Assembly: GCA_002633005.1 (NCBI GenBank)
Contig: NMRA01000132.1
Span: forward strand, 664,882 to 728,881
DNA length: 64,000 nt
Source of the DNA: Phoronis australis
Taxonomy: Eukaryota; Animalia; Phoronida
Direction: 5' to 3'
Shown here: positions 38,864 through 62,200 of the stretch, piece after piece
How positions within the stretch are numbered: position 1 is the first letter of the stretch
Layout: every line of letters begins with the position of its first letter
Made by a program: the position numbers and the translations under genes
The notes under the pieces: generated by a model
Database searches by the model: none
Seen by the model: the letters and a program-made list of their open reading frames with translations, nothing else
What the model was told of the DNA's origin: nothing

Positions 38864-39220
38864 ACTTAAGCTGATAAGATCGAAAGCCTTAAGTCAATTT
38901 GAATAGTTGAAACAATCCAAATTTTCAGATTAAATTTAACATGTGTATCACGAACCACATGCACATGTGTACTAATGAGTGACGTTAACAGCCTTGCGTT
39001 CCGTAAAACTAGAATCTCGCAAAAACGAAGAAACACACAAAACTTCGCGAGATTTTTCTCTGGATTATAAACGAAGCACGTGGTCTCATTAGCTTCCATT
39101 GCGAGGCTTTTGCATCTACGAAACTCAGCCTAAAGCAAATTTCGGTGACGTACTTCGCATAAACTTATCCCGCCATATTGGTAGAAGCGTTACCGGTGTT
39201 CGTATGTGAAAGAAACTTGG
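38864..39220. promoter_or_regulatory. Candidate bidirectional promoter FTSJ3/EIF3C (duplicate at ~45000-45356)
   Basis: CpG-richer stretch between divergent genes containing TTCGCGAGA (39044), CACGTG (39077), TGACGT (38980, 39146) and YY1-like CCGCCAT (39170). A possible 5'UTR-exon donor g|gtaatt lies at 39220. Confidence 0.55.
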
Positions 39221-40324
39221 TAATTGTTTATATTGTGCTGCATTTTGAACAAATTAATCTTTCTTTTATAAGAAAATTGACGATTTGATTCTTAGTGTGT
39301 TTCTTTTTCCAATTAAACTGACTCGATTTAAGATATGGACCTCCATATTTTTGCCTTGTGCACAATGGTCAATGCCACGAACAGGCAGCATGGCCGAAAG
39401 GCGAAATTCTGAAAATTAATGTGCTTCATTTTGCCATTTTGGACGATATTCACTGGCTCATAACTATTAACACACAGAATAATGAACGTGGCACTTATTT
39501 CTTTCTGGTGATATTCAACAAACAGCTGAGCCAGCTGTATTTGACTAATGTGGGCACTTCAAACAAGATCAAGTCCGTGGGGTCCCCTATTATAGACTTC
39601 CCTTACTTTGGTAGGCCTATACAGTAAAATTAAATGGCGATATATGAATTTATTCGCTTTGTTATTGATTGGCTACCACAATGCACTCACATTTTCATGA
39701 AAACGTTAAGATTTGTTGAGGTATTCAACAACAAAGTTCGCCTCCTCAGCATTTCCTTTGACAGTTTGGTACGAAATGTATCTGCAAAAACACAAAGTTT
39801 TCTTGAGCCAAACAGATGTGTGCGATAATAAGAGTTTTCTGTTGAATAAAACATGTCTAATATTAATGACATTTTCCAAAATATGAGAATTATTGAGAAA
39901 TGTTTGGCCCTTGTAGGGCCTACCCATTTCGTGGGCTGTGAATATCCATATGGCAAATATTTATTGTTATCTCAAACTCACAGGCCGTCCAAAAATGTCG
40001 CAACTTTACTTGCTAGAGTTGTTCTTCAGCAATATCTCTGATTTGTACATATTTTCAGTTGTGCATCTTTTATTTGTGTGCTTTGGTCTGTGCGCAGCTC
40101 CTGGTGGCTGGCTCCAGGAGCACAGCACAGACCGTCACTTTCATCTAATTAATGTTACACCCACAGAGATAATTTTATGGTTATCGAAGTTTCTCATGTG
40201 AATGCTTGAGAAATGTTGTAGTGAAGAAAATTAGCCCCCATTCTATGTGACATGGGGAACTATTCTAGAAGACCTGTGCATTTTGTCAACGGTCCCAAAA
40301 TCTGCTTTGCAGGTAAATTCTACC

Positions 40325-41034
40325 ATGTCACGTTTCTTCGCTGCATCGTCATCAGAGAGCGAGAGCTCGTCAGATGAAGAGGAGGTACTACCAACACAAC
40401 CTCAACAAGTCAAAAGGTAACGTAACTAGCGATATCACATTGAACTTGAACTTATCCAGTACCCTAAGAGTATACCACTGACATCAATACAGGGCTGAAT
40501 TCCATAAGACTACTGAAAGTTTGGCGACATCATGCAAGTCTTCACGGGATATTGGCTTCCATCACAAGGGAAGCACATGGTCTCACTAGGTTTTAGTGAT
40601 AAGCGTCTGTGTTCCGGAACTAACCCGTAATCACGTACGACTATTTTACTTGGACAGTATTCATAGTAAAGTCATGTTCTCAAGTCTGTGATGAAAACGT
40701 TGAGCTTGGTATTATGAAACCAGTGTTATTAAATGCTAGGACCAAGGTCTTGTACAACTAGAATGCTGCATCTGAGTAGTTGACTTGTTGATGACCCTTG
40801 GCCTTCTGTTATTGTGATCTTTGACCTTGTAATGAAATCGTTGTTGTCGAATAGTATTCATGCAATTGTTTTCCGCGTGCTTCAGGGCCCAACTGCTGTC
40901 AGTGAGTGATGAAGAAGATGATGTTAAACGCGTGGTGCGTAGTGCCAAAGATAAACGGTTCGATGAGATGCGCAACATTATCAAGCAGATGAAGAACCAC
41001 AAAAAGATTAAGGACATGTCCAACATCCTCACAG
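40325..41034 (+). CDS. EIF3C: EIF3C coding exons 1-2 (40325-40416, 40886-41034), alternate-haplotype copy ending at a gap
   Basis: [20 protein letters not shown]...[20 protein letters not shown]; near-identical to 46459-47168. Confidence 0.85.
40681..40752 (+). ncRNA. Degenerate family-2 box C/D snoRNA copy (allele at 46815-46886)
   Basis: C box GTGATGA, TGAGCT, guide variant TTAAATGCTAGGA; the D box reads CCAA here and CCGA in the other copy. Confidence 0.45.
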
Positions 41035-42085
41035 GTGAGCCAAGGTCAAGGCTGCCATGTTTACCGTGCAAAGACACAGGCTTTTTGGTTTGCTTTCTTG
41101 TAAAGGCTTATATTTTACTTTGCTCGTTAAACCCCTTCCAGAACGTCTTTANNNNNNNNNNNNNNNNNNNNNNNNNNNNNNNNNNNNNNNNNNNNNNNNN
41201 NNNNNNNNNNNNNNNNNNNNNNNNNNNNNNNNNNNNNNNNNNNNNNNNNNNNNNNNNNNNNNNNNNNNNNNNNNNNNNNNNNNNNNNNNNNNNNNNNNNN
41301 NNNNNNNNNNNNNNNNNNNNNNNNNNNNNNNNNNNNNNNNNNNNNNNNNNNNNNNNNNNNNNNNNNNNNNNNNNNNNNNNNNNNNNNNNNNNNNNNNNNN
41401 NNNNNNNNNNNNNNNNNNNNNNNNNNNNNNNNNNNNNNNNNNNNNNNNNNNNNNNNNNNNNNNNNNNNNNNNNNNNNNNNNNNNNNNNNNNNNNNNNNNN
41501 NNNNNNNNNNNNNNNNNNNNNNNNNNNNNNNNNNNNNNNNNNNNNNNNNNNNNNNNNNNNNNNNNNNNNNNNNNNNNNNNNNNNNNNNNNNNNNNNNNNN
41601 NNNNNNNNNNNNNNNNNNNNNNNNNNNNNNNNNNNNNNNNNNNNNNNNNNNNNNNNNNNNNNNNNNNNNNNNNNNNNNNNNNNNNNNNNNNNNNNNNNNN
41701 NNNNNNNNNNNNNNNNNNNNNNNNNNNNNNNNNNNNNNNNNNNNNNNNNNNNNNNNNNNNNNNNNNNNNNNNNNNNNNNNNNNNNNNNNNNNNNNNNNNN
41801 NNNNNNNNNNNNNNNNNNNNNNNNNNNNNNNNNNNNNNNNNNNNNNNNNNNNNNNNNNNNNNNNNNNNNNNNNNNNNNNNNNNNNNNNNNNNNNNNNNNN
41901 NNNNNNNNNNNNNNNNNNNNNNNNNNNNNNNNNNNNNNNNNNNNNNNNNNNNNNNNNNNNNNNNNNNNNNNNNNNNNNNNNNNNNNNNNNNNNNNNNNNN
42001 NNNNNNNNNNNNNNNNNNNNNNNNNNNNNNNNNNNNNNNNNNNNNNNNNNNNNNNNNNNNNNNNNNNNNNNNNNNNNNNNNNNNN

Positions 42086-45000
42086 ACTGGTTATGAATGC
42101 TTTACCTATAATAAGACTGGAGACTGGTGTGTGCTGTGCTGCCACCTGGAGCCAGCCACCAGGAGCTGCGCACAAGTCGACGCATACTCTTGACTTCTGC
42201 AGAAATTCAAACTTTCTGTTGAGCTGCAGTAACTTAAAGGCTGACCTGGCACGATAACCTAGAAAAGTAGAAACAACAGAGTAAATATATTTGGAAACAC
42301 AAAGAGTTGCAATGCAACCTTAATGAATACATAATTCCAATTTCATGCATACATTATCCTGAGATGAGGCGGAATTCCAAATTCAAGCACAACACCAGGA
42401 CACTGGCAGTAGCTTTGCTCATACGACACACTAGGAGTGACGGGTTGCCTGTCTGGAAACCAGTGTGCAGACATGAGGGCATTGCAGGAGTGTGGACGAC
42501 ATGGAAGGTGTGAGAAACTCTCTCTCACACATCTGCAGAGGTACGGTAGAGCTAACCAATAGGTGGTTGTTGTGTGACTGGATTGGCAACTTCCGAGACA
42601 GAAAATGCACTGAAACAAATTCACGACCAGAACTTCCCAAATCCCCTGCCAAGAATAAAAGAATAATGGCAGATACCGTTGCATTGGCAGGACACTGAAA
42701 AGGAATCGTTCAGGTCAAAATAGATTTCAGACAGGCACCCATCGCCATCCTGAAGAACAGCTGACCATGAGCAGGTACCGGCAGGCATCATCCAAAAAAA
42801 TCTCTTCAGTTGAAGGGTCAGTGCTTAGATCTGGTGCAGATCATGGGTATGGTTTGTAACTGGTCTCCTCACATTCATTTCCATCTATGACGTAAATGAG
42901 AACTTCTTACTCATGCAGTGAGTGTAGTTGTGTAGTGAGATGTTATTTGACCTGTCTCACCACTGCGCTGGCTTACTGCCACGCATGCCCTCTGTTGGCA
43001 TTGAAGGACGACTATTGTACGTCTAGGACTAGGAGACTGCCGACATTGACTGTCCTGACCTGACCTGACCAATATGCCGGTGATGGCCGAGGGCACAACA
43101 TGAACATTCACTGATTCAGCAGCCCTGCGGGCCATACAGGTGCTGGGTTATAGGGCAGGATTGATAACCAGACCGCACACCAACCAGACGTATTCAGCTC
43201 GGACCACAGAATGTAAGGTAAGACTGTGTAAGAGTGATGTAACTTACAGTGTAAGACATCTTGAGATTTTACTGCAGCCGAGTCACATTGAATCTCTTGC
43301 CGCCAAGTGGAGGGCAAAAGTCAAGTCAAGTTCCTCTGGGAGCAAGCACACTACACCAGCGTACGTATTCACAATGCTAGCGCTGAAATCTTGATTATTT
43401 ACCCCGAACTAAAACATTGACATTGTACTACTGATAGGGAGGACAAACAAAAAGTAGGTCACGGTGCTCCATATCTGCCTCCGTGTAAAACCCACGTCGC
43501 TAAATTACCCAATTTCAGACTTTAAAGTTAAGTATAAGACAATTTTGTGTTATAAATCCTTACCTTAGTCTTTATTTGTAAGTTTGTAATCTTTTTGTCT
43601 CAAATTATCGCTGATAAATCATTTTTTGTAAGCTTTTTTTAGCGCACGATTTTCCGCCGTGCGATCAACTTTCGAAAAAGATACAAACATGAAATTTGGA
43701 CAGGATGTAGTTTAGATGCGTGCGCATCTCCTCAAGTTGTTTTCTCGAAGTCAAGGCCAAGTTTTCATGGCGAGTTTTCGATCGTCCGGAAGGCCTAATT
43801 TTGGTCGGTTGGGAGATTGATGTTTTTCCAATTGCGCAATATGCCCCCCCCGATTTTTAGATGAGGAAATTATTACTCTTTTAATTGGTAATTATTTAAT
43901 TTTCAGAAATTCTGCCAAACTGCTGCGCATTGGCACTTTTCAAACAGCAGTCGTTAGTTCACTAAGTCGCCGCATGTCAGCGCCACCAGCGGTTACGTTG
44001 AAGTCCAATGGCATCGCAACTTCACCGTTCGAAATAAAGTTGTTACAAAGTTTCTGTTCAAGCGTAAATGATGAAATCCTTCATGTTAAGAGTGATTTGT
44101 TTTCCCAAATGGTCTTTTGTCTACTTTCTGATGTTTTTTGCCATGATACGATCTAATAGTACATGGGTGGCACCCAGCACTGAAAAAAGTGGGGAGCTAT
44201 AGCCTCCCCCAGCCCCCTGTCACTGTCAGGCAATCATGTGTTGCCCATGTAGCAGTATTCAGGGGCAGATCTAGGATTTTTAGATAGGAGGGGGGCAGGG
44301 CAGAGTATTAGGCAGGATTTTATCCGTAAGATATTTGCACCCTCAAACTGCCAAATGAAATATGGGAGTTTTAGGGGGGCGACGGGCCAGGCCCCCTTGC
44401 CCCCCCCATATCCACCAATGTGATCTTGTGATTTGATGTGAAATTTCATCCTAGCTCAGATGTATTTATTTCTGAGCTGATGTGGTGTCTTTGCTCTTTA
44501 CCTTTTAAGCTGTGTAATCCATTGTTTTCATCAAACACTGAGCCTGTTCTATATGCTATAACAACACACTTAAACAGCAATATCTCTGTAGAAATCGATC
44601 CAAAATTTGTGTAATACACACCACCATGTTTGTCTCAATGAGACGAATCTTTTTATATGCAGCACATGTATATTCCTTTATTTTTTTATGAAATTATGTA
44701 AAAAGGCAGATATTTTACGCATAATCGTCGCGTTTCAACGGCCATTTTCTCGTCAACCGCTCATCCAATTTTTCTGATATTTGCACCATTTCATTTCTCA
44801 TACCACCAAGGGCTTTTCAAAAATGTATGACACATGGGTATTGTAAAAAAATTTAAAAAACGTTGTCCTCCCTACTACTGAATCGTGATAACCATGCCTG
44901 GCTTAGTTTAGTAGAGTGGCTTTAAAACTCACCCGTTTCCTTCGCCAGTTGGTAGAACTTGTCTTTCCTGGCCTTCCCAATTTTCGCTTTCTTCCCCATA

Positions 45001-47285
45001 CTTACGCTGATAAGATCGAAAGCCTTAAGTCAATTTGAATAGTTGAAATAATCCAAATTTTCAGATTAAATTTAACATGTGTATCACGAACCACATGCAC
45101 ATGTGTACTAATGAGTGACGTAAACAGCCTTGCGTTCCGTAAAACTAGAATCTCGCAAAAACGAAGAAATACACAAAACTTCGCGAGATTTTTCTGTGGA
45201 TTAGCCACGAAGCACGTGGTCTCATTAGCTTCCATTGCGAGGCTTTTGCATCCACGAAACTCAGCCTAAAGCAAATTTCGGTGACGTACTTCGCATAAAT
45301 TTATCCCGCCATATTGGTAGAAGCGTGACCGGTGTTCGTATGTGAAAGAAACTTGGTAATTGTTTGTATTGTACTGCATTTTGAACAAATTAATCTTTAT
45401 TTTATAAGAAAATTGACCATTTGATTCTTAGTGTGTTTGTTTTTCCAATTAAACTGACTCGATTTAAGATTTGGACCTCCATATTTTTGCCTTGTGCTCA
45501 ATGCCACGAACAGGCAGCATGGCCGAACAGAAAGGCGAAATTCTGAAAATTAATGTGCTTCATTTTGCCATTTTGGACGATATTCACTGGCTCATAACTA
45601 TTAACACACAGAATAATGAACGTGACACTTATTTCTTTCTGGTGATATTCAACAAACAGCAAAGCCAGCTGTATTTGACAAATGTGGGCACTTCAATCAA
45701 GATCACGTCCGAGGGGTCCCCTATTATAAACTTCCCTTACTTTGGTTGGCCTATACAGTAAAATTAAATGGCGATATATGAATTTATTCGCTTTGTTATT
45801 GATTGGCTACCACAATGCACTCACATTTTCATGAAAACGTTAAGATTTGTTGAGGTATTCAACAACAAAGTTCGCCTCCTCAGCATTTCCTTTGGTACGA
45901 AATGTATCTGCAAAAACACAAAGTTTTCTTGAGCCAAACAGATGTGTGCGATAATAAGAGTTTTCTGTTGAATAAAACATGTCTAATATTAATGGCATTT
46001 TCCAAAATATGAGAATTTTTGAGAAATGTTTGGCCCTTGGCCTTGTAGGGCCTACCCATTTCGTGGACTGTGAATATCCATATGGCAAATATTTATTGTT
46101 ATCTCAAACTCACAGGCCGTCCAAAAATGACGCAACTTTACTTGCTAGAGTTGTTCTTCAGCAATATCTCTGATTTGTACATATTTTCAGTTGTGCAACT
46201 TTTATTTGTGTGCTTTGGCCTGTGCGCAGCTCCTGGTGTCTGGCTCCAGGTGGCAGCACAGCACAAACTCACTTTCATCTAAGTAATGTTACACCCACAG
46301 AGATAATTTTATGGTTATCGAAGTTTCTCGTGTGAATGCTTGAGAAATGTTGTAGTGAAGAAAATTAGCCCCCATTCTATGTGCCATGGGGAACTATTCT
46401 AGAAGACCTGTGCATTTTGTCAACGGTCCCAAAATCTGCTTTGCAGGTAAATTCTACCATGTCACGTTTCTTCGCTGCATCATCATCAGAGAGCGAGAGC
46501 TCATCAGATGAAGAGGAGGTACTACCAACACAACCTCAACAAGTCAAAAGGTAACGTAACTAGCGATATCACATTGAACTTGAACTTTTCAAGTACCCTA
46601 AGAGTATACCACTGACATCAATACAGGGCTGAGTTCCATAAGACTACTGAAAGTTTGGCGACATCATGCGAGTCTTCACGGGATATTGGCTTCCATCACA
46701 AGGGAAGCACATGGTCTCACTAGGTTTTAGTGATAAGCGTCTGTGTTCCGGAACTAACCCTTAATCACGTACGACTATTTTACTTGGACAGTATTCATAG
46801 TAAAGTCATGTTCTCAAGTCTGTGATGAAAACGTTGAGCTTGGTATTATGAAACCAGTGTTATTAAATGCTAGGACCGAGGTCTTTTACAAGTAGAATGC
46901 TGCATCTGAGTAGTTGACTTGTTGATGACCCTTGACCTTCTGTTATTGTGATCTTTGACCTTGTAATGAATTCATTGTTGTCGAATAGTATTCATGCAAT
47001 TGTTTTCTGCGTGCTTCAGGGCCCAACTGCTGTCAGTGAGTGATGAAGAAGATGATGTTAAACGCGTGGTGCGTAGTGCCAAAGATAAACGGTTCGATGA
47101 GATGCGCAACATTATCAAGCAGATGAAGAACCACAAAAAGATTAAGGACATGTCCAACATCCTCACAGGTGAGCCAAGGTCAAGGCTGCCATGTTTACTG
47201 TGCAAAGACACAGGCTTTTTGGTTTGCTTTCTTGTAAAGGCTTATATTTTACTTTACTCGTTAAACCCCTTCCAGAACGTCTTTA
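42086..47285. repeat. Near-identical tandem copy of 37361-41151, including FTSJ3 exons 1-2 at 44933-44999 and 42106-42258; probably an uncollapsed haplotype
   Basis: Colinear with scattered SNPs and indels plus one 1.4-kb insertion; the two copies are separated by an N gap. Confidence 0.85.
43435..44874. mobile_element. hAT-like non-autonomous element with nested MITE, absent from the other haplotype
   Basis: TIR TAGGGAGGACAA/TTGTCCTCCCTA; flanking duplication CTACTGA (7 bp, or ACTACTGA 8 bp if the terminal A is counted as TSD); empty site at about 38737-38750. Confidence 0.85.
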
Positions 47286-50200
47286 ACCTTTACCAGCCAC
47301 TAGTTTGAGTAGAACACATAAGAACTTTGTTCTGTTTTAGCAATGTAGAAATCATCCCTGTATTCAGACGTTGGCTTGGAAACATAAAAGTCGCAAATGT
47401 GAGTGATGCAGTGGAACTGAACAAAATGCACCCACTTACAATTGGTTGCTTATGCTATCATCGTTATGTGTCGGCCATTTGCTGGTATATCTCAGTAACC
47501 CTTGATGGATGTTCACGAAATTTTGCAGACGTGTTTCTTTCATGGATGGGGTGGCACAGGAGAATTTTCGAACAATAATATCAGGGATATGGAATGAACG
47601 TTCACGATTGGTACATTGTGACATTTGCTCTGTGTGACTGACTGGGCTAATGATGAAAACCTTCGAGCCTAATGTATCTGATATCTTGTGATATTAAATG
47701 ATAGGACTGAAGCCCATGTAATCATTCACTGTATTCTGTTTGGAAGAGGTCCTTATCGTGATACTACCTCGCTTGAACTCTTTGTTGTAGATTTTGAGGG
47801 TCTTTGCAAGGCATTTGATAAAGCCAAGAAGGTTGTTGAACAGGAGGGAATACCCAGGTTCTATATTAGGTGTGTGGTGGAACTTGAGGACTTTGTCAAT
47901 GAGGTAATTTTACTCTAAATGTGCCACTGGTTAATTTTATTCAGAGGGTGGATATCTCACAGGTTTTGTTGTGCAATTCATCGCTTTTAAAACTTTCAGA
48001 AAGAAAGAAACTAATCGGTTAAGTTCCTTAGCGTGAGATTTTTGAAAATTTGGATATATACATCAGAGGATGAACATAGTCATTCATACAGATGGAAAAA
48101 TGAAATACTGTTTTTTCGTAACAACTTAGCTGAAATTGTTAATTCAAGTATTTCTTCCAGGAGATAAGGTTTCTGTTTTGTCGCTATCACTGTTGAAAAA
48201 TCTTTGTGTTATTACTATAATTGTAACCGTGGTTGTTGCTGTGACCAAGCTGTATTTACAGCTTGTGTTGCCAATGACAACTAACACACCAATGACATTG
48301 GTTGCAGTGCTGGGAGGACAGAGATGGCAGGAAACAGATGAGCAAAAACAATGCCAAGGGTCTTACTACACTGCGTGGTAAACTGAAGAAGTATGTGAGG
48401 GACTTTGAGAAGGATATGGCTGAATATAGAAAGGTGGGTGTTTGTCAACAGCTGAGGGCTGTTCCAGTAAAATCCGTGTGGGAGGGGGGGCGGACGGCAG
48501 TAGAAATAAAAATTCATGGGTGGTGGTCTTCAGAAAAAAACTCAAATTATGGGTGGTCGTTCCTGTAAGAAGTGATGCATTAAAAATGGGTGGTATTTTT
48601 TAACCTGTTAATGTTGACAGGTTGGTTACTTCAGCCATCAAAACTCAAAAAAATGCAATTGGCATGTATACTAACTTATCCCAATACAAAAAGCCCATAT
48701 TGCCAGTGAACAGAGTGCAATATGTTCACTAAGCCATTAATCAAGTCATGGGCAACTTGATTTGAGCCAGCTGTTTGTCTGCAGTCCTGTTGAATTGAAA
48801 AGTTANNNNNNNNNNNNNNNNNNNNNNNNNNNNNNNNNNNNNNNNNNNNNNNNNNNNNNNNNNNNNNNNNNNNNNNNNNNNNNNNNNNNNNNNNNNNNNN
48901 NNNNNNNNNNNNNNNNNNNNNNNNNNNNNNNNNNNNNNNNNNNNNNNNNNNNNNNNNNNNNNNNNNNNNNNNNNNNNNNNNNNNNNNNNNNNNNNNNNNN
49001 NNNNNNNNNNNNNNNNNNNNNNNNNNNNNNNNNNNNNNNNNNNNNNNNNNNNNNNNNNNNNNNNNNNNNNNNNNNNNNNNNNNNNNNNNNNNNNNNNNNN
49101 NNNNNNNNNNNNNNNNNNNNNNNNNNNNNNNNNNNNNNNNNNNNNNNNNNNNNNNNNNNNNNNNNNNTGCAACACTAAACTGGTGTTAACACATATAAGA
49201 AAATTGATGATTTTTAAATAAAAAGTATGAGGAGTAAGAAAAACAAGTTCCAATATTCACTTGACCTAGAAGTATAAAAGAGTTCGTGGAGACAGAGATT
49301 CATAGATCCTTATAATTGAAAAAATGTTCATTGAAATTATAGACACATGGTGAACAGAGACACCTGGTGGCTGCCAAAAGTATTGCTCACAGGCTACTTT
49401 AGTTTTTGACAATGTTGGACAAGACAACTAGTTCTTGTCTGTCAATCATCTAAGTTCTTAACAGGTCCTCCTGGAGGCAATTTGTTTGCAAGTGTTGGAT
49501 TTTGTATTTTAACTTATTAAAAATAATTAAAAAATTATGGGTCATGGGTTGGAGAAATAAATGAAAAATATGGGCGGTGGGTACGAAATAAAAGTGCCTT
49601 CCCCCTCTCATACAGATTTCGCTGGAACAGCCCTGAGTCCTGAAAGACTGACTAGAGCTGTTTTGTTGTTTTAATGATTTCTTAGTAAAACCATTAGTGG
49701 TGGGCATGAAAAACTTGCTTTTCTGGAAACACAGGTATTCAGAATGGCATCAGGTAGTGCAGCTATAATTGTGTACCTTTGATAGCCCTGTGTGTATAGT
49801 AAACTTTGCTCTTGTCACAAAAACAATGGGCGACTGTCTAGAAATTCAAAAATGTAATGTAAAATTTGACAAAAAATGGTAAAACTAATGTTAGCAAATA
49901 ATGAGTATTGTAACAGTTTAGCTTTCATATTTTTCATGGTCACAAGCTTGAGATGCGTGTTCAAGATCAGTTAAGCTCAGTCTCGGTGTTAAAACATGCA
50001 GCTCAGTTCAGTTAGGCAAAAATGGCCTCTTTATGTTTTCATTGAACATTAAGAAAATGTAACGTTCGTGTTCCTTAAACCTAGAGTGTGTGTATTTGTA
50101 GAACCCTGATGAAGGCGAGGAAGTGTCGGAAGAAGGTAGGTCTTCGACTCTAGTACAGAGAAAATACATCAAAATCAGTGTATGGTGAAGTTATTACAGT

Positions 50201-53200
50201 GAAACAATTTGTTGACTGTATTTTTTTGACAGTTTACATAAATAATTAAGTTCCTTTACTGTGTCGCAAAGCTCATGGACAAGTGAAACTGCGTGTTGCA
50301 TGAAAATATTAAAGTCATGAATTTGGGGAGCATGGATGTCTGTCTATACATATGATGTGTCTTTAATAGAAAGTTTTGTTTGATTCTTATAACAATCCCC
50401 TGGTCACTGATAAGACCAATCACTGGTGTAGCATGGAGTTTGGTTCTTGCGTTAATGTAGTGTGATTATGCTCTCCAGAAGTTGAAGAGGAGTCTGAGCC
50501 AGAGCCCGAACCAACCACCTTCGTGGCACACGCACCGCCCAAGCCCGACTTCAAGAGTAAACCTCCGCGGGAAGTTGGCTCTGGCGACGAGTCGGACGAC
50601 AGCACAGACTGGGGATCGTCCGAATCGGAGTCGTCGTCGTCTGAGGACGAGGATCAATATAAAGATAATCCATCTGCTAAGTTTCTCAAGAAGTAGGTTG
50701 GATTTGGTTTGTTTTAAGGATGTTGTTGAAAATGGTGTCTTGTGGTTTTGTACATTGGCTGAGCTGATGAAGTAGGCATCAAGCTCTGTATCAGGTTAGA
50801 CATAAACTGTGTCTCTGTATGAATATGTAGAAATCTTTTCAGACTTAGGTTCATTAGGTCTCATGATGTGGTCAACAGGTGGCGTGCAGACCAGACTTCA
50901 AATGTTTGCGATCTGTATTTGTTTCTATAGAAAACCAACTGAGGTTGACAAGGAGAAGGCAGAGAAGCCGAAGAAAGAGAAGAAGAGGAGAGAGAAGAAG
51001 GTGGAAGAAGAGGATGATGAAGAGTGGACAGAAGTGAAAGGGGGTGCACCAATGATTCAGGTGAGAGGCCTTGGCATATGTATTCCTATGAATGTCTAAA
51101 GCATCCATGTTATAATGGTTTGTGGATGATCTGACTACTTCAGTGCTCCCTGGTGGCATTTTTGTGTCGAGTTCATTATCTACCACCTTCCTTGATGGAT
51201 GTTCATGAAACGTGGTATGTGTTTTTGTAGAGTCGCCTGGTATCAATTTTGTTTTTGCATTTGCCTTGCTATCTACCAAGTTGGACAGCCGTAGTGCCCT
51301 CTGTTGTCCATTTTTGTTACTGACAAGACATTGGATGTCTATTGTTGTAAAAATGGCTTGACAGTTTGATACAGCGTAGAGCTGTATGGCTTGGATGTGT
51401 CAGCACCAACCAATTTTCAGCTTTGACCAAGTTGGACTTCCTTTATATATTACGCGATACTGTTCAACAATCCTAGAGGCACAGTGTTTGCGGCGCAGTA
51501 GTCACAGGCGAATTTTGATTCCTGTCTTTGCGTTGCTCTTGTTGAGAAACGTCTTTTCAAAAGATGTCGTGTTGGATTGTATAGTTAAAGTTGTCATTAT
51601 CATTGTTATCATTCTAACAACTGCTAATGCACCTACTTCTCAGGAGAAGCCCAAAATGTTTGCCAAGGATCAGGAGATCAATTGTGAGGTGGTCATAAAG
51701 AAACTCATGGAGATCATAGCCGCTCGTGGCAAGAAGGGCACCGATCGCACTGAACAGATCGACCTCTTGACTGAACTGCAGGAGGTGGCCAAAGCCAACA
51801 ATCTCGGTAACGGCATCCACGTGAAGATTATGTTCCACATCATTGCTGCTGTTTACGATTACAATCCTAACATCTCCACGTGCATGAAGTCGGATATCTG
51901 GCTCAAGTGAGTTTTTACACGTCATAATTTAGTTTAGAAAAAGAGACGTCAAAGAAATTTGCTTTTTTTGTCATTGCCAGTAAGAAAGTTGGTGGAAATG
52001 CTTCTTTGTCGGCTGTATGGGAGTTAAGCGAGCTGTTATGGCGGTCCTTCCTGGGGAGCTCAGATTAAAGATTTTTTACTTCGAAAGTTTTCTGTCCTTG
52101 GTAGTTCTAATGGCCTGTGATTGATGGCTGTGGCGTTCTTTTATTTGCGGTTAACTATAATTTTGTCATTGATCATTGGGTGCATAGCACACTGGTACTT
52201 GTTGTTTGTATTGACACGCATGTGTTTTCTTTCTCCCAGAAATNAGACGTCAAAGAAATTTGCTTTTTTTTGTCATTGCCAGTAAGAAAGTTGGTGGAAA
52301 TGCTTCTTTGTCGGCTGTATGGGAGTTAAGCGAGCTGTTATGGCGGTCCTTCCTGGGGAGCTCAGATTAAAGATTTTTTACTTCGAAAGTTTTCTGTCCT
52401 TGGTAGTTCTAATTGCCTGTGATTGATGGCTGTGGCGTTCTTTTATTTGCGGTTAACTATAATTTTGTCATTGATCATTGGGTACATAGCACACTGGTAC
52501 TTGTTGTTTCTATTGACACGCATGTGTTTTCTTTCTCCCAGAAATGTCTAACATTTTTATATTTCCTGATGATGATATACACAGACCTGTCCTGAAATTT
52601 TGATGACAGACTTGTATCTGAAGACAAAAGAATGGAACTGAAATGTTTTTCTGAGATTTTGTTGCCAGATTTTTCCCAGATTTCTCACTTGAGTCGACTG
52701 TGTTGTCGTTGCTGTACAGGTGTTTGGGGAATATCAGGGAGTTGCTGGAAATGCTTATAGAGCACTCGGATGACATCACAGTGAGCCAGTATATCCCAGA
52801 GGACCGTGAGAACGTAGAAACGGCACCCTACCGGGTGAGGGGCTGCATGATGACCATGGTGCAGCGGATGAACGAAGAGTTCACAAAGATGTTACAGGCG
52901 TGTGACGCTCACAGCACAGAATACGTCGACAGGTAAGTCAACAACGCACGTTTTCAGTAAAGGTGATTAATCATCTCGTTTTGTGTCAGTTGTTCGTCAT
53001 GAATGTGAAATTCAAGTTGCGTTTCTGTACAGGTCCTATGGTAGCTCTATGGATTGGTGCTTTGGGTGTTTGTTTTCTCCTATGACGATTTCCACAGACC
53101 TGTCCTGATGTTTGATGACAGATTTTATTCCGAGGAGATCCCTGTTGCTTAGTAATGTCTAACAATCGATATTGGTGCTTTTGTTCTCTCATGCTGCTGC

Positions 53201-56200
53201 ACAAATGTCATGCATTACAGACTGAAGGATGAACAGATGGTGTGTGACATCATAGATCAGCTGATTGTTTACCTGGAGAAGATTTCCTGTACCACAGAAG
53301 AGCTTTGTAGAGCCTACCTTATAAAAGTGGAGCATGTCTATTACAAGGTAAGGGTAAGACGGCCTCTGTTTACCTTTAGGCACGAATTTAACTTCAAATT
53401 TATATATCCGTGCTATGCTGTTTCAAGATCTCACAAACGGAACATACTTGAGAAAAGCACTTTGTTATGGATGTAAGACAAAGCTACGTTTTCACTTAAA
53501 ATGACACTAAACCCTGTTTTGATGATTTCAACCAATCCTCGTTGTGTCACCTGCTAATGGATCATTGGCGTCAATCTTGAAAGATATAGGTTGGAATCGA
53601 CTAAAAACTCCCTATCTCACAAATTGGATATTACGGTTGGTGGTGGGTGCTCTGTTCCCGCCATTGCCGTGTAATTCGGTAAAAGCATAGGTCTCACTTG
53701 CCCACTGAGCAGACTTTGAGAGGAGTCTTCAAATTTCCCTCCAAACTTTTGAGGGTTGTTGAAGGTTGAAGGTTGCTTTGTTTCAAAGCACTGGATGGGA
53801 AAATCTGTTAATAGACCTAAACTGGGTTTGGTATCATTTTAACCCAGTTGTGTTAAGCCTTTCACGATGAAATATGAGAATTTCTTTGAGTAGTTTATAT
53901 TTGTGTTTGTTTTTCCTGGCAGTTTGACAGCAAGACTCCCGAGGAGAGCAAAGAAATAGTTGATGAGAAATGCCAGTATATCTACACGCACGATAAGACA
54001 GACCGTATCCGTGCACAGGCCATTCTCTGTCACATATACCACAATGCGTTGCACGACCGCTGGTTCGAGGCACGTGACCTCATGTTAATGTCCCACCTAC
54101 AAGACACCATCCAGCACTCGGATGTACCAACGCAAGTATGAAACATTTGTGTTGACTCTGATTGTGTCTTACTAAAGTCAAGTAGAAAGTTTGATGTTTT
54201 AATTTGTCTGTGTGACGAATGACCTAGGAGGCTTTTACATGTTAAAACCTTGATACTCTGCGATACTATAGAATGAGCACCAATACCGTGTATTTTGAAA
54301 GCATGAGTTGTTGCCATTGTCGGCCAAAACTCGGTTATCTCCTATGATGATATCCACAGACCTGTCCTGATGTTTTGATGACAGATTACTTCTGAGGGGA
54401 TATGATCCTATAACTGGAAATGTGGTTGATCTTTCTGCTGAGATGTGTTGACTAGTTTGAAGTTCATAGTTCTTGTAAGCGTATTGACTTCTCTCTCTAC
54501 TCTTGTTGAAAAACATAGTATGATGACATGGTAGACTGTATTTGTCTCAACACGTTCCTTGACCTACATCAACTTCTTAAGTTCAATTTCTGTTTACTTG
54601 TCATATGACTTTGCATTAATCTTTGGACTTGTTGCTACAAATATTATGTGTTATGCGTGCTTGCGTGCACTAGTTTAGTAGTTCTATGGTGAAGAGTTGC
54701 TAAACACTGTGCAAATCAAAAATAAATCAATTTCCTGACTTTATGTTAATGAAAACGTAGTGTCCCCATCTCGGAGACTAATACAGATAGTCTGAAGCCG
54801 AAGTGCTGGCATGTCGCCATTGGCGGATTTGCATTATGCCACCGCTGGATGAGTAACAAACAGTCAATTAGTCACTAATGACTGTTTAGGTAGTTGACGA
54901 GGGACAGATGGCCTATTGTACATGTCATCATTGAAGTTCATATCGTTTCCCAGATCCTGTACAATCGCACTATGGTTCAGTTGGGTCTGTGCGCATTCCG
55001 CCAGGGCATGATCCGTGACGCACACAACTGTCTTGTAGACATACAGAGTGGAGGACGGGCCAAGGAGTTACTAGCACAGGTAAGAGGACATGTGATGCAG
55101 TTGCTCTTTAATGGAGAGCACTGCTGATGTGCAGGGAGGGGCTTCAGGTGCCTGTCCGCTGTCACTGAATTAGAATGACGTAATTGCTCTATTTTGTTGA
55201 CACATTCATTAAGTTCACCTTGGCACATGCAGCAATCTCTTTAGAGAAATGTTGTCAATTTGCTCACATATCCTGAAAAATCTTGCGCTTTTTATCACAA
55301 TGACCGTCGGGTATCTTGATATGCCAGTGGCAGAGAGCCTGCCAAAAATTAGCCCCGCTAACGTGGAGTTGAGTGGTTATTGCAGTAATGCTCTGGCTCT
55401 TCTCTCATTGTTCTATTTCATTGTGAATATGCCGACTAATGATGACAACCACTGAGCCTTTACTTCTGATGTTAAGTGAAGTTAAATGATAGGACTGAAG
55501 TCGGCAATTAGATTTAGATTTAGATTTTTTACTATTTATTGAATACGCAGCATGTAATACAGAAAATATGCAGCTTGTAATGTAGAAAAAAGTCAGCTGC
55601 GATATTGTAACGCATAAATACCTGTTATGTTAAATAATGGTGTGACTCGCATTCACACCACAAGCATGCAAGCTGCATGCATTACCTTATTGCAATGTTA
55701 TTCGTTGTCAACATAATTACACCTTTTCCATTTTTTTGAAAATATTCGATTTTTATAATGTTGTGTCTTGTTCGCCTGGATTGAATGAGAGAAAATCATG
55801 AAATAAGGAACTGAATTCAGTGACGGCGAAACAAAATTTTTTTTACAAAACTAATGAGTTGGCCACATAAGCCAATGAGTTTGTTGCTCAAAAATAGTCA
55901 TAGTGGGGAACAGCTGAGTGATTATTTGGAGCACTCGCTGGGCGACAACATCAAAAATCCCCATATCTTGCTGGATGGAACTCGTTCTGCATGATTGGCT
56001 GAGCGTCGCACAATATGTGATCAAAGTAGTAATATGTAGTTCAAAGGCCAAGAGAACTTCTAAGGAGACACATGGACGTAACTGGCTCATTAATGATGCC
56101 TTCTCTGCTGTAGTTGTGACCATATTCAGGGCTTGACGTAAACGAGTACACGGTTGAAAATACGAGTAGAAAAAGTAAAATACGAGCAGGAAATTTATTA

Positions 56201-59200
56201 TTTGAATGAGCACAACAGATTTTTTTGTTGTCACGTTTTACAACTCGAGTGCAAATTGAGTATGAGGTCACTCATGTTTCCGTGCGGGCATTTTCACCTG
56301 TGTTGAGCGCCTGTGTTTCACCCGTTATGTTCTCTATTTCAGGGTTTGTTATTGCAACGGCAACATGAGCGAACAGCTGAGCAGGAGAAGATTGAGAAGC
56401 GTCGTCAGATGCCATATCACATGCACATTAATTTAGAACTGTTGGAGTGTGCCTACCTGGTGTCGGCCATGTTGTTGGAGGTGCCCTATATAGCTGGTGA
56501 GTGTTGGCTACAGTAAGAACAATCTTTAGCTGGTTTTTAAACAGGTTTGCTGCACAAATCTTTCAAGTTGTTGGTCAGTGTTATGCTCGTTCTGTAACCC
56601 TCAGCCCTCTTTACTGTGATATTGAACTCCTGTCAAACAAGAGTAAAATGAGCCAGCCACTGGTGTAACCTAGTTACATAGTGTAATTGTTTGAAATTAT
56701 TAGTAGTAACTCACAAAACGATCTTAACAGTGTTATTAGCAAATACAAAGGTTTTTAAAGATGACAAATGGCTTAATCGGTAGTTTGCCATCTGAAAATA
56801 AGTTGCCTGTACCCGGTCTGTGTTTATTGGTTTTAAAAACGAGCAAAACTGTCAAACTCACATTGATTTAATAACATGATACACATTGTTTTGCAGACTT
56901 GTGATGAAAATTGACGAGCCTTTACTTCTGAGTTTTTCTGAAGTTAAATGATAGGACTGAAGTCTGCATTTGGAAAATGTTTCGTTGACATGGCAACGCG
57001 TTTTATGCCACGTTATTTCAATAATATACCTTTATAATTCGCCCGCAGCCCACGAATTGGACGCACGTCGACGAATGATTAGCAAATACTTCCACCATGT
57101 ACTGCGAGTGAGTGAGAGACAGACTCTAGTAGGTCAGCCAGAGAGTATGCGTGAACACGTGGTACAGGCGTCCAAGGCCATGAAGCGCGGCGACTGGCGT
57201 GCGTGTAAAGGCTACATTANTTGGGCCGTAAAAGTTTCAAAGTTTCCGCGTTTTTTGTCATTGGTCATTCCAAGCCCTGAAATTGAGCCAGCCACTGGTG
57301 TAATCTAGTTACATAGTGTAATTGTTTGAAATTATTAGCAGTAACTCACAAAACGATCTTAACAGTGTTATTAGCAAATTCAAAGGTTTTTAAAGATGAC
57401 AAATGGCTTAATCGGTAGTTTGCCATCTGAAAATAAGTTGCCTGTACCTGGTCTGTGTTTATGGCTTTTAAAAACGAGCAAAACTGTCAAATTCACATTG
57501 ATTTAATAACATGATACACATTGTTTTGCAGACTTGTGATGAAAATTGACGAGCCTTTACTTCTGAGTTTTTCTGAAGTTAAATGATAGGACTGAAGTCT
57601 GCGTTTGGAAAATGTTTCATTGATATAACAACGCGTTTTATGCCACGTTATTTCAATAATATACCTTTATAATTCGCCCGCAGCCCACGAATTGGACGCA
57701 CGTCGACGAATGATTAGCAAATACTTCCACCATGTACTGCGAGTGAGTGAGAGACAGACTCTAGTAGGTCAGCCAGAGAGTATGCGTGAACACGTGGTAC
57801 AGGCGTCCAAGGCCATGAAGCGCGGCGACTGGCGTGCGTGTAAAGGCTACATCATCAATGAGAAGATGAATGCTAAAGTGAGTTTTTGTCTGATAACCAT
57901 TACAAGTGATAAGATTCCCTTGTGAAAACTGCAGTACTTGATACCCCTTGGTAACAGTTAATCAGTTCTATTGAATGCAAAACCATTTTGATCATCCAGG
58001 GTTTGGAATTTTCTTTTTTTAAGAGGATTTCCTCTTTTTAATTTCGATTTTCTCTTCTAGTTTTCTCTTTTCGTCACTTTTTATCATTATTTTGACTTTA
58101 ATCATGCAGAAACGTATATTTCAGATAAATTTTACTACATACAAAACATTTCTATCACACAAGCGTATTTATTTGTGGAACGATACATCACGTGGAAATT
58201 TTTCCTCGTTTTTGTCATTAGTCATTCCAAGCCATGTTTACCAGAACAAACTGAAACCAGGTAGGAAGTATAAGTGCCTCAGAATGTCATGGATCTCATT
58301 GTGATTGTGCTGACTAATGATGACAACCACTGAGCCTTTGTGTCCGACAATCAGTGACGTTGAATGATAGGACTGAAGTCAGCTGTTGGATAAAACAATT
58401 TGACCCTATTATGGCCAAAAACTGATGTAAAAAAAATCTAGCTACTAAACATCACAGGTCGTTCTGTACCAGGTCTGATAAAGTAACTTACCAAATGGAA
58501 TGAGCAAAAAGTAGTGAAATCGACAACATTTATTTCTGATGGATAAGGAATGATCCTCTGCCCTCGCCTACTGTTTCATTCATTTTCCGTCTTAAAAGCT
58601 CGCGTTGTATGGCAAAGTTGTACGCCGGAGAGAACTGGAAGCGCCACTTTAACTGACTCACTAATCATTTCAGTTGTGTTATATTTATATTTAGTATTGA
58701 GTGGAATCACTGATTGCCTGGATCAATATTACATGACCTCTCATCTCTGACTGACTTAACTGAGCTTGTTCCCCGTCTCTCATGCAAGGTGTGGGACCTG
58801 TTCTATGAGAGTGACCGCGTGCGTTCTATGATCGTGGACAAGATACAGGAGGAGAGCCTACGTACCTACATGTTTTCCTACAGCAGCGTCTACGACTCGA
58901 TCAGCATGCTTACATTGGCCGAAATGTTTGAGCTTGACAAGTCTGTTGTTCACTCTATCATCAGTAAGATGATCATCAATGAAGAGCTAATGGTACGTGT
59001 TGGGGCTGTTGTTAATGTATTGTGTCGTATTACGTAGTATTGTATTATACAGGGCTTGGAATTTTCCGCGGAAACACGGATTTCCGCTTTTTTCAAATGT
59101 GCTTTCCGCTTTTTTCAAATGTGCTTTCCGCTTTTTTTATAATATTTCCGTGTAAAAAAATCGGATTTGATATAAAATTTCCGCGGCAAATTCCTTTCTT

Positions 59201-62200
59201 ACCGCGGCGTTGCAGACGACGTTCACCTCGAAAAGCGGAAGTTGCCGTTGCTCTTTATGTTTTGGAGGAATGTAATTTGTCAACATTGCCGGGGCATCTG
59301 GGACAGTGTGGTGTGATTTTCAATGGCGTCTCGTGTTATTGTTAAGCGCGGCGACAAATACTGCCGCTCTGCAGCCAAAAATGTGTGGGTTGGGAGTGGA
59401 TGGGCGAGCTAAAAGGACGCAGACGCATGCTTCTGATGGTGGTAACCTTTTTTTTTAGTCCTCCCGATTTTTGTCGGGGAAAGATTCACATTAGCCATTT
59501 CAAGGCTGGTTATCGAATTTGGGCCGTAAAAGTTTCTAAGTTTCCGCGTTTTTGTCATAGGTCATTCCAAGCCCTGATTATATTACTCAACCTTGTCATA
59601 TTGCATTATATTACACTATATTACACTATGTGTCATATTTCACAGTATTACACCTTGTCATTTGGCATTGTATTATAAAATTTATTGGGCGGAGTGTTTC
59701 AAAAAGATGAAATGCTTTAATTATGCAATCGTGATATTGTGCAGCAGTTGGTAGGCAAAAATAGAAGTAATCACATGGCTAGTGACAATTTAGTGAACCT
59801 GTTGTTATTTTGTTGTTTAACTAACCTGTTGTTATTTTGTTGTTTAACTAGCCTGTTGTTATTTTGTTGTTTAACTAGCCTGTTGCCAGTGTAAACAGTA
59901 GTGGTTTCATGTAACTTCCTCCCTGGATTGTATATTTATGCTGCATTGTATTTGACTCACACTGTATTTGGTTGGTGTCATGTCCGTTGCTATCCATTTT
60001 AGATTTGTGCTTTGATTCATTGGGCCATGAATAGTCATAACTCCCATGGCATCGTTACCTAAATCCCTATTGAGTATTAAAATATTGCCTATTGAATGGC
60101 ACATGGTCTAATATCACTTGTTGAGGTCACTGATGACTCCAGGTGACACTTAACTCATTGCCATGTGTGTCTATTGAATGCTGGTTGATGATGACCCATT
60201 CTGAGCCTATTTTCTGATTTTACCTGAGGTTGAATGATAGGACTGAGACCAGCGGGCATGTTTAGAAGCCTGATATAACGTGGTCATATTTTGAGAACCA
60301 GTTTATGCTCATTATTCAGTGGAGAAAACTGGTTCTCAAAATGCAGGCACGTTTTATTACTGTCAAGCGTGAATGCATGTTACATGGAAGATCAACTATT
60401 TAGGCACACACTGGCACTTCTTTTTGAAAATTTTCTCCCTAACGTTACTGTTGTTGTTTATTTGTCTATTGGATGTTGTTTGCAGGCATCACTAGACGAA
60501 CCTACTATGACAGTCATGATGCACCGTACAGAGCCTAGTCGACTACAGTCACTAGCCCTGCAGCTGTCTGAAAAAGTGTCTAACCTAGTCGACAATAATG
60601 AGCGAATGATGGAGATGAGGTCGGGCACGTACTTTTACCAGAAACAAGGTGAGAACCCCTTTGAACAAAAGTTAGCCTTCAATTTTTAACATAAAATGTT
60701 AATTATGTTCGTTTCGTTTATGTGAAGTTGTGGCCTTACAGAACAGTTCCTGGTGTGATTTGATGACTGTATGATGATTTACACAGACCTGTACTGAATG
60801 AAAACTGAAGACAGGTTATGTAATCTGAGAAAATCGTTTTCAGCAATCGTAGGGAACAAGTGAATGTCTTTAACACTAACGAATGCCCTGGGACAGGGAA
60901 CAAAACTTGTTAGGTGTATGTATTTTTGAGTTTATTCACTGGGGCCTTGTTGATTGCCCGGTGCGTTCCTACAGGTGGAGGTCAACAGAATTATCAACAA
61001 AATCAAGACAAGCAACAGTGGGGTAAGAAAGAGAACCAACAACAGTGGCAGAAGAAGGATGGACAGCAGTGGAGTGAGTAGCATTATGTGGTCGCCTTTA
61101 TTAACTTCTTTTTTCAGATATTTATTATCATCAATGAACAAATACAAAAACAAATAAGTACATCCATTCATTAATGCGTGCACACCTCAGGAGAGGCCAT
61201 TCTCGTATCTCGTATAAAGTAAACAACTGCTACGATGAATTAACTTCAACAATAAAATTTTCCCATTTCCCAGAGAAACTGTCACACACCAAATTTTTAT
61301 ACGCAGTTAATTTTTCAGCATCATTGTACTCATAAATATATGTAACAAACTTGTGAATGGTATATTTTTGGTACAAGTTTGTAAGTGTACGGTTTGGCTA
61401 GTAATAGCAAAATGTTAAATAGAAAATGATGTGTCTCATAAAGTCAAAAAATAACACATTTGTAATTGTAAGAGAGACAGTTGGAAAGCTGAATGAGACA
61501 CGTTTGAAATATTTTTCTTTGCCTTCTTTATGCGCTCATCTTCTTGTTAATGAGGACGACTTGTGTGCTATTGAGTTTACACTTGCCAGCAATAGTCTGA
61601 TATAACGTGCCCACATTTTGAGAACCAGCTCGATGCCCGTTATTCAGTGGACAAAACTGGTTCTCAACCGATCACTCACTTGTCTCGAACAGTCAGGGCT
61701 TGGAATTTTCCGCGGAAACGCGGATTTCCGCTTTTTTCAAATGTGGTTTTCACTTTTTTTATAATATTTCCGCGTAAAAAATTGGATCTGATATAAAATT
61801 TCCGCGGCAAATTCCTTTCTTACCGCGGCGTTGCAGACGGCGTTCACCTCGAAAAGCGGAAGTTGCTCTTTATGTTTCGGAGGAACGTAAATTGTCAACA
61901 TTGTCGGGGCATCTGGGACAGCGTGGTGGGATTTTCAATGGCGTCTCGTGTTGTTGTAAACCGCGGCGACAAATACTGCAGCTTTGCAGCCACAAATGTG
62001 TGGGTTGGGAGTGGGCGGACGAGCTAAAAGGGCGCAGACGCATGCTACTGATGGTGGTAACTTTTTTTTTTTATTTTTTTTTTAGTCCTCCCGATTTTTG
62101 TAGGGGAAAGGTTCACATCGACCATTTGAAGGCTGGGTAGCGCGCATGATTTGGGCCGTAAAGTTTCCGCGTTTTTTGTCATTGGTCATTCCAAGCCCTG

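What the first reader, a model, noticed from the sequence alone, without database searches (positions are those of the whole stretch)
47643..60253. Unnamed multicopy box C/D snoRNA family with a bipartite match to the 28S peptidyl-transferase region (or U2 A48)
Seen: five intact intronic copies (47643, 55431, 56892 with allele 57527, 58309, 60180). Each has a different but self-complementary terminal stem, canonical C and D boxes, the invariant D-guide TTRAATGATAGGA, and an invariant GAGCC in the otherwise variable D' guide. Known: the nucleotide paired to the fifth base upstream of box D is methylated, and some C/D snoRNAs use extra base-pairing next to the target. Inference 1: conserved 28S GUCGGCUCUUCCUAUCAUU pairs with AAUGAUAGGA (10 bp) and its adjacent GGCUC pairs with GAGCC, predicting Am at the A equivalent to E. 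coli A2518. I do not recall this as a canonical yeast or human site. Inference 2: U2 UCUUAUCAGUUUAA pairs with the guide using one G-U and one bulge, predicting Am48; this would explain the conserved TTRAA. A dual rRNA/snRNA guide is possible.
Basis: partly seen in the sequence, partly recalled or inferred. Interest (0 to 1): 0.8.

Follow-up and report, generated by a model that had tools for sequence, protein, structure and literature searches.

The report
Ordinary rRNA methylation-guide snoRNA copies
Five copies of a small RNA gene sit in introns of a translation-factor gene and likely guide methylation of one ribosomal RNA adenosine already measured as methylated in fruit flies, so this is likely an ordinary guide with a known nematode look-alike.

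Summary
Five box C/D snoRNA loci and one allelic duplicate lie in introns of an invertebrate eIF3c gene; a sixth, decayed copy was missed. All six intact sequences share the guide AATGATAGGA and the motif GAGCC.

The 28S prediction holds but is not new. The predicted adenosine is human 4464 / yeast 2887, which is Drosophila 28S-Am3420. That site was mapped by RiboMeth-seq and nanopore sequencing and assigned to snoRNA:CD47 (PMC11014333).

The family is not unnamed in substance. The Rfam ceN53 consensus (Caenorhabditis) carries the same guide core and GAGCC. Window copies reach only 27 bits (cut-off 50), but relatives in NOP58 introns of another animal reach 44 bits. GAGCC fits the known 'extra base-pairing' next to the target.

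The U2 A48 idea is weak: 8 pairs with a G-U, then a bulge, about 4-6 kcal/mol weaker than 28S, and tested only on a recalled motif. Expression and methylation in this species are untested.

The small gain is that a site listed as fly-only is probably shared across protostomes.

The parts
47643..47716 (+). Box C/D snoRNA copy 1 (box C 47650, box D ends 47710), intron 47169-47790
55430..55506 (+). Box C/D snoRNA copy 2: box C 55439-55445, GAGCC 55454-55458, D' 55466-55469, putative C' 55476-55482, D guide 55485-55494 (fifth base T55490), box D 55495-55498
   Evidence: inside RNA-seq splice joint 55076-56340
56892..56968 (+). Box C/D snoRNA copy 3
   Evidence: inside joint 56495-57048
57527..57603 (+). 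Allelic (assembly) duplicate of copy 3
   Evidence: core 100%, flanks 96% alike to copy 3 across the N at 57220; the exon behind it is duplicated too
58309..58383 (+). Box C/D snoRNA copy 4 (D' is CCGA)
   Evidence: inside joint 57877-58789
60179..60254 (+). Box C/D snoRNA copy 5
   Evidence: inside joint 58991-60485
46822..46879 (+). Decayed sixth copy: mismatch at guide position 6, box D CCGA, 3-bp stem; likely a pseudogene
40688..40745 (+). Allelic duplicate of the decayed copy (box D CCAA) in a haplotype-duplicated segment
   Evidence: 46.1 bits; not in the model's alignment
46459..61078 (+). Host gene, eIF3 subunit C (start codon 46459; 3' end not determined)
   Evidence: Pfam PF05470 in 5 and PF01399 in 1 of 8 exons tested; PDB eIF3c E 8e-28; spliced reads

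Best explanation
These are five paralogous intron-encoded box C/D snoRNA genes in an eIF3c gene, predicted to be released from spliced introns and to direct fibrillarin to 2'-O-methylate the 28S rRNA adenosine equivalent to human A4464 / fly A3420, likely helped by GAGCC pairing just upstream of the target. Shown by the sequence and calls: boxes, stems, intron position, 10-bp complementarity and the identity of the predicted position. Inferred from established C/D snoRNP biology: processing, protein assembly and the D+5 rule. Inferred from yeast experiments (PMC3116282): GAGCC, which sits out of guide register, grips the adjacent rRNA GGCUC and raises methylation efficiency. The genes are likely orthologues of nematode ceN53 and functional counterparts of fly snoRNA:CD47.
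For: 10 of 10 contiguous Watson-Crick pairs, starting at the base next to box D, to one site that is the best hit in 3 of 3 LSU sequences; the next best LSU hit is 7 bp. Duplex -12.9 to -14.9 kcal/mol. The 28S motif occurs in 44 fetched loci, of which those scanned are LSU rRNA. Nine landmark bases from the cross-species table fit only when the predicted A is human 4464: 9 of 9 in 35 of 40 loci and 8 of 9 in the other 5, against at most 6 of 9 for any other shift from -12 to +12. Fly Am3420 = human 4464 = yeast 2887, MethScore 0.98-0.99, lower on fibrillarin knock-down, nanopore-validated, guide CD47 (PMC11014333 supplement). GAGCC lies 8 nt after box C in 6 of 6 intact sequences but 6-8 nt before D', so it is not a canonical guide. 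Its complement lies 1 nt from the main duplex; chance 0.008-0.04 depending on the window allowed (computed after the fact). Extra pairings of 4-11 bp in the second guide region stimulate methylation 2-5-fold in yeast. Relatives in another animal keep guide and GAGCC and score 39.9-44.4 bits on ceN53 (3 of 4 copies scanned).
Against: No expression or methylation data for this species: the RNA-seq runs are 151-nt paired libraries and show no discrete small RNA. This organism's own 28S was not available; the target was read from other eukaryotes' rDNA found by searching for that motif, so its conservation in those loci is partly by selection. A second fly study (RibOxi-seq2) did not detect position 3420, while detecting 3422; it recovered 30 of 42 28S sites and says it misses close neighbours. 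ceN53 scores are under the cut-off, and ceN53 is the top Rfam family for only 2 of 6 window sequences and is not listed for copy 4. The CD47 sequence could not be seen. GAGCC was part of the search pattern for the relatives; only L004a was found without it. The CCT of GAGCCT can also pair inside the snoRNA.
Confidence: 0.87

Rival explanations
1. Dual guide: the same D guide also methylates U2 snRNA A48, which would explain the kept TRAA upstream of the 10-bp core.
For: T and R at guide positions 12 and 11 are kept in all window copies, in the relatives and in the ceN53 consensus. Guides that act on both an snRNA and 28S exist (PMC3884663 passages).
Against: Over guide positions 2-11 the duplex is -5.9 against -10.9 kcal/mol for 28S. 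Position 13 is A, not T, in 5 of 5 aligned relatives and is the last base of the putative C' box. The neighbouring U2 base has its own guide: human scaRNA28 for 47U, fly mgU2-48. In flies, which express CD47 strongly, the U2 sites reported are Um48, Cm41 and Cm28, though that method can miss adjacent sites. The copies have no UG-rich element. No real U2 sequence was obtained, so the test rests on a recalled motif.
Confidence: 0.06
2. The guide (also) targets an adenosine near the 3' end of 18S rRNA, which would pair TTRAATGAT without a bulge.
For: In the one full SSU sequence held (L031) the guide finds 11 contiguous pairs with one G-U (9 for the TTGAA copies under a one-wobble limit), -11.7 to -12.2 kcal/mol.
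Against: The same region in the only other SSU 3' end held (L016) does not pair (-2.0 to -3.5 kcal/mol). No adjacent GGCUC explains GAGCC there. L031 is an unidentified eukaryote, not this animal.
Confidence: 0.04
3. The 28S target is right, but GAGCC(T) is kept for pairing inside the snoRNA (with AGG of the D guide and part of box D), not for extra rRNA pairing.
For: RNAalifold predicts AGCCU paired with the guide's 3' end and box D in 10-11 of 11 sequences, and this would explain the invariant T after GAGCC, which rRNA pairing does not.
Against: With boxes C and D blocked, only CCT(A)/(T)AGG is left, -2.6 to -5.1 kcal/mol against -8.6 for GAGCC on rRNA. The helix has no change on both sides. 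The first G is unexplained, and ceN53 has A after GAGCC.
Confidence: 0.15
4. The copies are unexpressed relics or chance repeats.
For: No mature small RNA seen; 0 depth over copy 3 and its duplicate in 4 of 4 runs. One copy has clearly decayed.
Against: Boxes, guide and GAGCC are invariant while spacers and flanks have diverged, and the stems are kept by compensatory change. The libraries are unsuited to 70-nt RNAs.
Confidence: 0.03

Closest known systems
Rfam RF01641 ceN53 (Caenorhabditis box C/D snoRNA CeN53)
   Same: Consensus has AAAUGAUAGG directly before the last guide base and box D, GAGCC at the same place after box C, and similar length (74 positions). By the D+5 rule it points to the same adenosine (inference).
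   Different: Window copies score 20.2-27.2 bits and relatives up to 44.4, under the 50-bit cut-off. CeN53 is made from a UM2 promoter-linked precursor (PMC2527325 passages), whereas these are multicopy intronic genes. I found no paper that states a target for CeN53.
Drosophila snoRNA:CD47 (FBgn0086057, formerly Me28S-G2017), guide assigned to 28S-Am3420
   Same: Same target nucleotide (human 4464, yeast 2887); intronic box C/D guide.
   Different: One gene listed for the site, about 90 nt, in RpL3; here five copies of 59-61 nt (box C to D) in eIF3c. Its sequence was not seen, so homology and GAGCC are untested.
Extra-base-pairing C/D snoRNAs such as yeast snR75 and snR76 (PMC3116282)
   Same: Short conserved element in the second guide region, out of register with D', complementary to rRNA beside the target.
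   Different: Different target; the effect has not been tested for this family.
SCARNA28 / mgU2-47 and fly mgU2-48 (U2 methylation guides)
   Different: They methylate the neighbouring U; human scaRNA28 is about 200 nt with a UG-rich motif. These copies are short and lack it.

Membership tests
Box C/D methylation-guide snoRNA | Box C (RUGAUGA) near the 5' end and box D (CUGA) near the 3' end | tested here: met
   6 of 6 intact sequences
Box C/D methylation-guide snoRNA | Terminal stem closing the C/D motif | tested here: met
   6-8 bp; 6 of 6 pairs with changes on both sides
Box C/D methylation-guide snoRNA | Antisense element of 10 nt or more to rRNA directly upstream of D or D' | tested here: met
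   10 Watson-Crick pairs to LSU rRNA of other eukaryotes; this species' rRNA not held
Box C/D methylation-guide snoRNA | Intronic, same strand as a spliced host gene | tested here: met
   Splice joints span 4 of 5 loci; the fifth by GT/AG ends
Box C/D methylation-guide snoRNA | Accumulates as a discrete small RNA | tested here: inconclusive
   151-nt paired RNA-seq; no shared read ends
Box C/D methylation-guide snoRNA | Binds fibrillarin/NOP56/NOP58/15.5K and methylates the target | not testable with these tools
   Needs immunoprecipitation and Nm mapping
Rfam RF01641 ceN53 | Score at or above the gathering cut-off (50 bits) | tested here: not met
   Best 27.2 bits, E 0.073; relatives 44.4 bits, E 4e-7. 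Not filed as a member; called ceN53-like
Rfam RF01641 ceN53 | Same D-guide core and GAGCC in the same position | tested here: met
   cmscan alignments
Drosophila snoRNA:CD47 orthologue | Same target nucleotide | tested here: met
   Predicted target maps to fly 3420
Drosophila snoRNA:CD47 orthologue | Sequence homology beyond the guide | not testable with these tools
   CD47 sequence not found in the supplements searched
Box C/D scaRNA guiding U2 | Contiguous complement of 10 nt or more to U2 at the D+5 register | tested here: not met
   8 pairs with one G-U, then a bulge, on a recalled motif only
Box C/D scaRNA guiding U2 | UG-rich Cajal-body element | tested here: not met
   None in the 59-61-nt bodies; not universal among C/D scaRNAs

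The most novel reading that the evidence does not exclude
A short, multicopy intronic snoRNA, shared by nematodes, flies and lophotrochozoans, that uses one guide to methylate both 28S A4464 and a not yet described U2 adenosine next to the branch-point recognition region, without any Cajal-body signal.
Probability: 0.06. Interest if true: 0.5.

Novelty: new member of a known kind. Interest (0 to 1): 0.2.

Why it matters
Modestly. The six-species table in PMC11014333 lists 28S-Am3420 as fly-only, and a 2026 preprint calls the 3415-3420 cluster fly-specific. A guide for the same adenosine, in five copies here, in several copies in NOP58 introns of another animal and in the nematode ceN53 consensus, suggests the mark is widespread in protostomes and absent from the vertebrates mapped so far. 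It also gives ceN53 a testable target, suggests widening that Rfam model, and offers a clean invertebrate test case for extra base-pairing. No new mechanism is needed.

Tried and rejected
No whole genome is held for the window, so its own 28S, 18S and U2 could not be read.

Attempts to obtain a real U2: an Rfam U2 search in 5 genomes found 0 of 5. A pattern scan of viral contigs gave 31 matches; 20 of the 31 were scanned against Rfam with no hit, and the printed flanks of all 31 look like unrelated DNA. The 28S motif was absent from viral contigs.

Expression: no RNA holder was listed by the run search. Laying reads gave sense-strand depth 6.8 and 2.8 over copy 2's bin in 2 of 4 runs, with none in the bin upstream. 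Other intron bins were covered similarly and no ends were shared, so this is uninformative.

D' guides as canonical guides were rejected: no shared target, best hits 6-8 bp at different places in the window copies.

Planarian RiboMeth-seq covers only the 5' 1626 nt of 28S and lists the 3' half as unknown.

Literature searches for a stated ceN53 target or for this site in other species found nothing relevant. These blanks are weak: one search missed even the paper that holds Am3420, and the original nematode snoRNA papers did not appear in any listing.

Weak Rfam hits to SNORD59, SNORD99 and SCARNA18 (21-25 bits) were set aside as likely box-driven; their alignments were not printed.

Earlier-scan look-ups by sequence and place returned nothing.
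Full report
OBSERVATION. A strict pattern of box C, GAGCC, the guide AATGATAGGA and box D matches six places on the + strand and none on the - strand; the guide+box D 14-mer is expected about 0.0007 times. Bodies are 59-61 nt from box C to box D, closed by 6-8-bp stems of different sequence. In an alignment of 6 window and 5 related sequences all 6 stem pairs show changes on both sides (the structure was derived from this alignment, so the control is lenient). Cores of the five distinct intact loci are 70-83% alike and flanks about 50%, except 56892/57527, which share 96% flanks across a single N and are one locus assembled twice. A model built from the alignment found no further intact copy. 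It confirmed a decayed locus at 46822 (guide mismatch at position 6, box D CCGA; itself in the model) and its allele at 40688.

HOST. The gene is eIF3 subunit C: 6 of 8 exons tested match Pfam PF05470 or PF01399, and one matches solved eIF3c at E 8e-28. RNA-seq joints with GT..AG ends span four of the five loci; the intron of the 47643 copy is inferred from sequence. The best named protein matches to one exon are nearly all molluscan (52-70% identity, among 30 hits of 54 candidates), so the animal is probably a lophotrochozoan; this is a rough placement.

TARGET. No genome is held, so I used eukaryotic rDNA found in other collections (44 loci; LSU identity). The guide makes 10 contiguous Watson-Crick pairs to one LSU site, the best in 3 of 3 LSU sequences, with the fifth base before box D opposite an A. 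To number it I took nine neighbouring modified bases from Table S4 of PMC11014333. They fit when the A is human 4464 / yeast 2887 / fly 3420 (9 of 9 in 35 of 40 loci with enough flank, 8 of 9 in 5; 4 of the 44 loci dropped as too short), and at no other shift. In an E. coli 23S the aligned base is an A 34 nt before the A-loop U, which agrees with A2518 given the recalled standard numbering. Its place at the helix 90/91 junction of domain V is recalled, not tested.

THE SITE IS KNOWN. In Drosophila, 28S-Am3420 is a high-confidence site: MethScore 0.98-0.99, lower after fibrillarin knock-down (p 0.029), nanopore-validated, and assigned by snoscan to snoRNA:CD47 in RpL3. It is listed as absent in human, yeast, Arabidopsis, Xenopus and Dictyostelium. 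Against this, a RibOxi-seq2 preprint (PMC13228274) did not detect 3420 but did detect 3422; it recovered 30 of 42 28S sites and states that it misses closely spaced ones.

THE FAMILY HAS A NAMED LOOK-ALIKE. Rfam gives nothing at gathering thresholds. Below them, ceN53 (RF01641) is listed for 5 of 6 sequences (20.2-27.2 bits) and is the top family for 2 of 6; its consensus has the same guide core and GAGCC at the same place. One metagenome scan returned 4 loci from another animal, with copies in introns of a NOP58 gene next to SNORD70; these loci probably come from one species. Three of the four copies scanned score 39.9-44.4 bits on ceN53 (E down to 4e-7) and share a further UAUCAU that was not in my search pattern; the fourth was not listed. 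This bridges the window copies to ceN53, but the cut-off of 50 is not met, so I call them ceN53-like. CeN53 is an expressed C. elegans RNA (PMC2527325). I found no stated target for it.

GAGCC. It lies 8 nt after box C in all six intact sequences but 6-8 nt before D', and the D' guides share no target, so it is not a second guide. Its complement lies 1 nt upstream of the main duplex (-8.6 kcal/mol; chance 0.008 within 3 nt, 0.04 within 20 nt, computed after the fact). The decayed copy's change keeps a G-U pair. This matches the extra base-pairing of PMC3116282: 4-11 bp, often in the second guide region, 2-5-fold effects. The segment it covers includes the U49 target Cm4456. A rival is weak pairing inside the snoRNA, which would explain the invariant T after GAGCC; both may hold.

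U2 AND 18S RIVALS. The first T of TTRAA is the last base of the putative C' box and is A in the relatives; TR stays unexplained. The adjacent U has dedicated guides in human and fly, and fly U2 mapping reports Um48, Cm41 and Cm28 (with the close-site caveat). A scan also showed an 11-bp match near the 3' end of one 18S that fails in the other 18S end held.

EXPRESSION. Not shown. Three RNA runs and one contig set were laid twice; they confirm splicing but are unsuited to 70-nt RNAs.

PAPERS SEEN. PMC11014333: passages, section 19 part 1 of 2, supplement rows and part 7 of 95. PMC13228274: a passage, sections 6 and 7, supplement rows (one scanned file could not be searched and may bear on site 3420). 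PMC3116282: abstract, sections 8 and 9. PMC11649923: passages, supplement rows and part 1 of file 4. PMC2527325, PMC5733568, PMC3884663, PMC6412121: passages only. The D+5 rule and intron processing are established knowledge, recalled.

VERDICT. A real, well-formed multicopy snoRNA family of an ordinary kind. Its most likely target is a site already measured in flies, and its nearest named family is ceN53. Interest 0.2.

Noticed in passing
window 52562-52632, 53078-53142, 54337-54402, 60765-60830 (+): Four U25/snR56-like box C/D copies in other introns of the same eIF3c gene (best 41 bits on snR56, under its cut-off); their D' guide has an 11-nt match to SSU rRNA.
   Followed up: partly
window 44055-44145 (+): A box C/D-like element upstream of the eIF3c start codon with no clear rRNA complement (best 9 nt) and only a weak Rfam hit.
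   Followed up: partly
window 38000-41150 vs 42689-47300; 56645-57219 vs 57280-57877; 51963-52243 vs 52265-52545: Segments 91-99% alike on either side of N gaps: both haplotypes assembled in tandem, which inflates copy and exon counts.
   Followed up: yes
L001:460-532, L004:655-727 and 1028-1100; Rfam ceN53 consensus: UAUCAU just before GAGCC is complementary to the snoRNA's own D guide (a mimic of the target); it is kept in nematodes and the NOP58 copies but mostly lost in the window copies.
   Followed up: partly
L002:1765-1856 and L004:1751-1842 (-): SNORD70 above the Rfam cut-off in a NOP58 intron of the related animal.
   Followed up: no
window 55420-55639: Sense-strand reads begin within or near copy 2 and run about 130 nt past it in 2 of 4 runs, with none in the bin upstream; could be a 3'-extended precursor or a mapping gap.
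   Followed up: no
window 60126-60154 (+): Weak SNORD48-like stretch (17 bits, E 7) just upstream of copy 5, without a downstream box D of its own; may be chance or a relic.
   Followed up: partly
window 47500-47520 and 51190-51210: A stretch of about 19 nt is shared by two introns; the 47480-47630 region folds into hairpins, but no H/ACA family matched.
   Followed up: partly
window 59050-59576, 61694-62200, 60285-60343: Interspersed repeats and a short inverted-repeat element in introns that draw many reads from elsewhere in the genome.
   Followed up: no
L005-L048: Eukaryotic rDNA is common as contamination in prokaryote genome records: about 230 stretches estimated in the collection.
   Followed up: no
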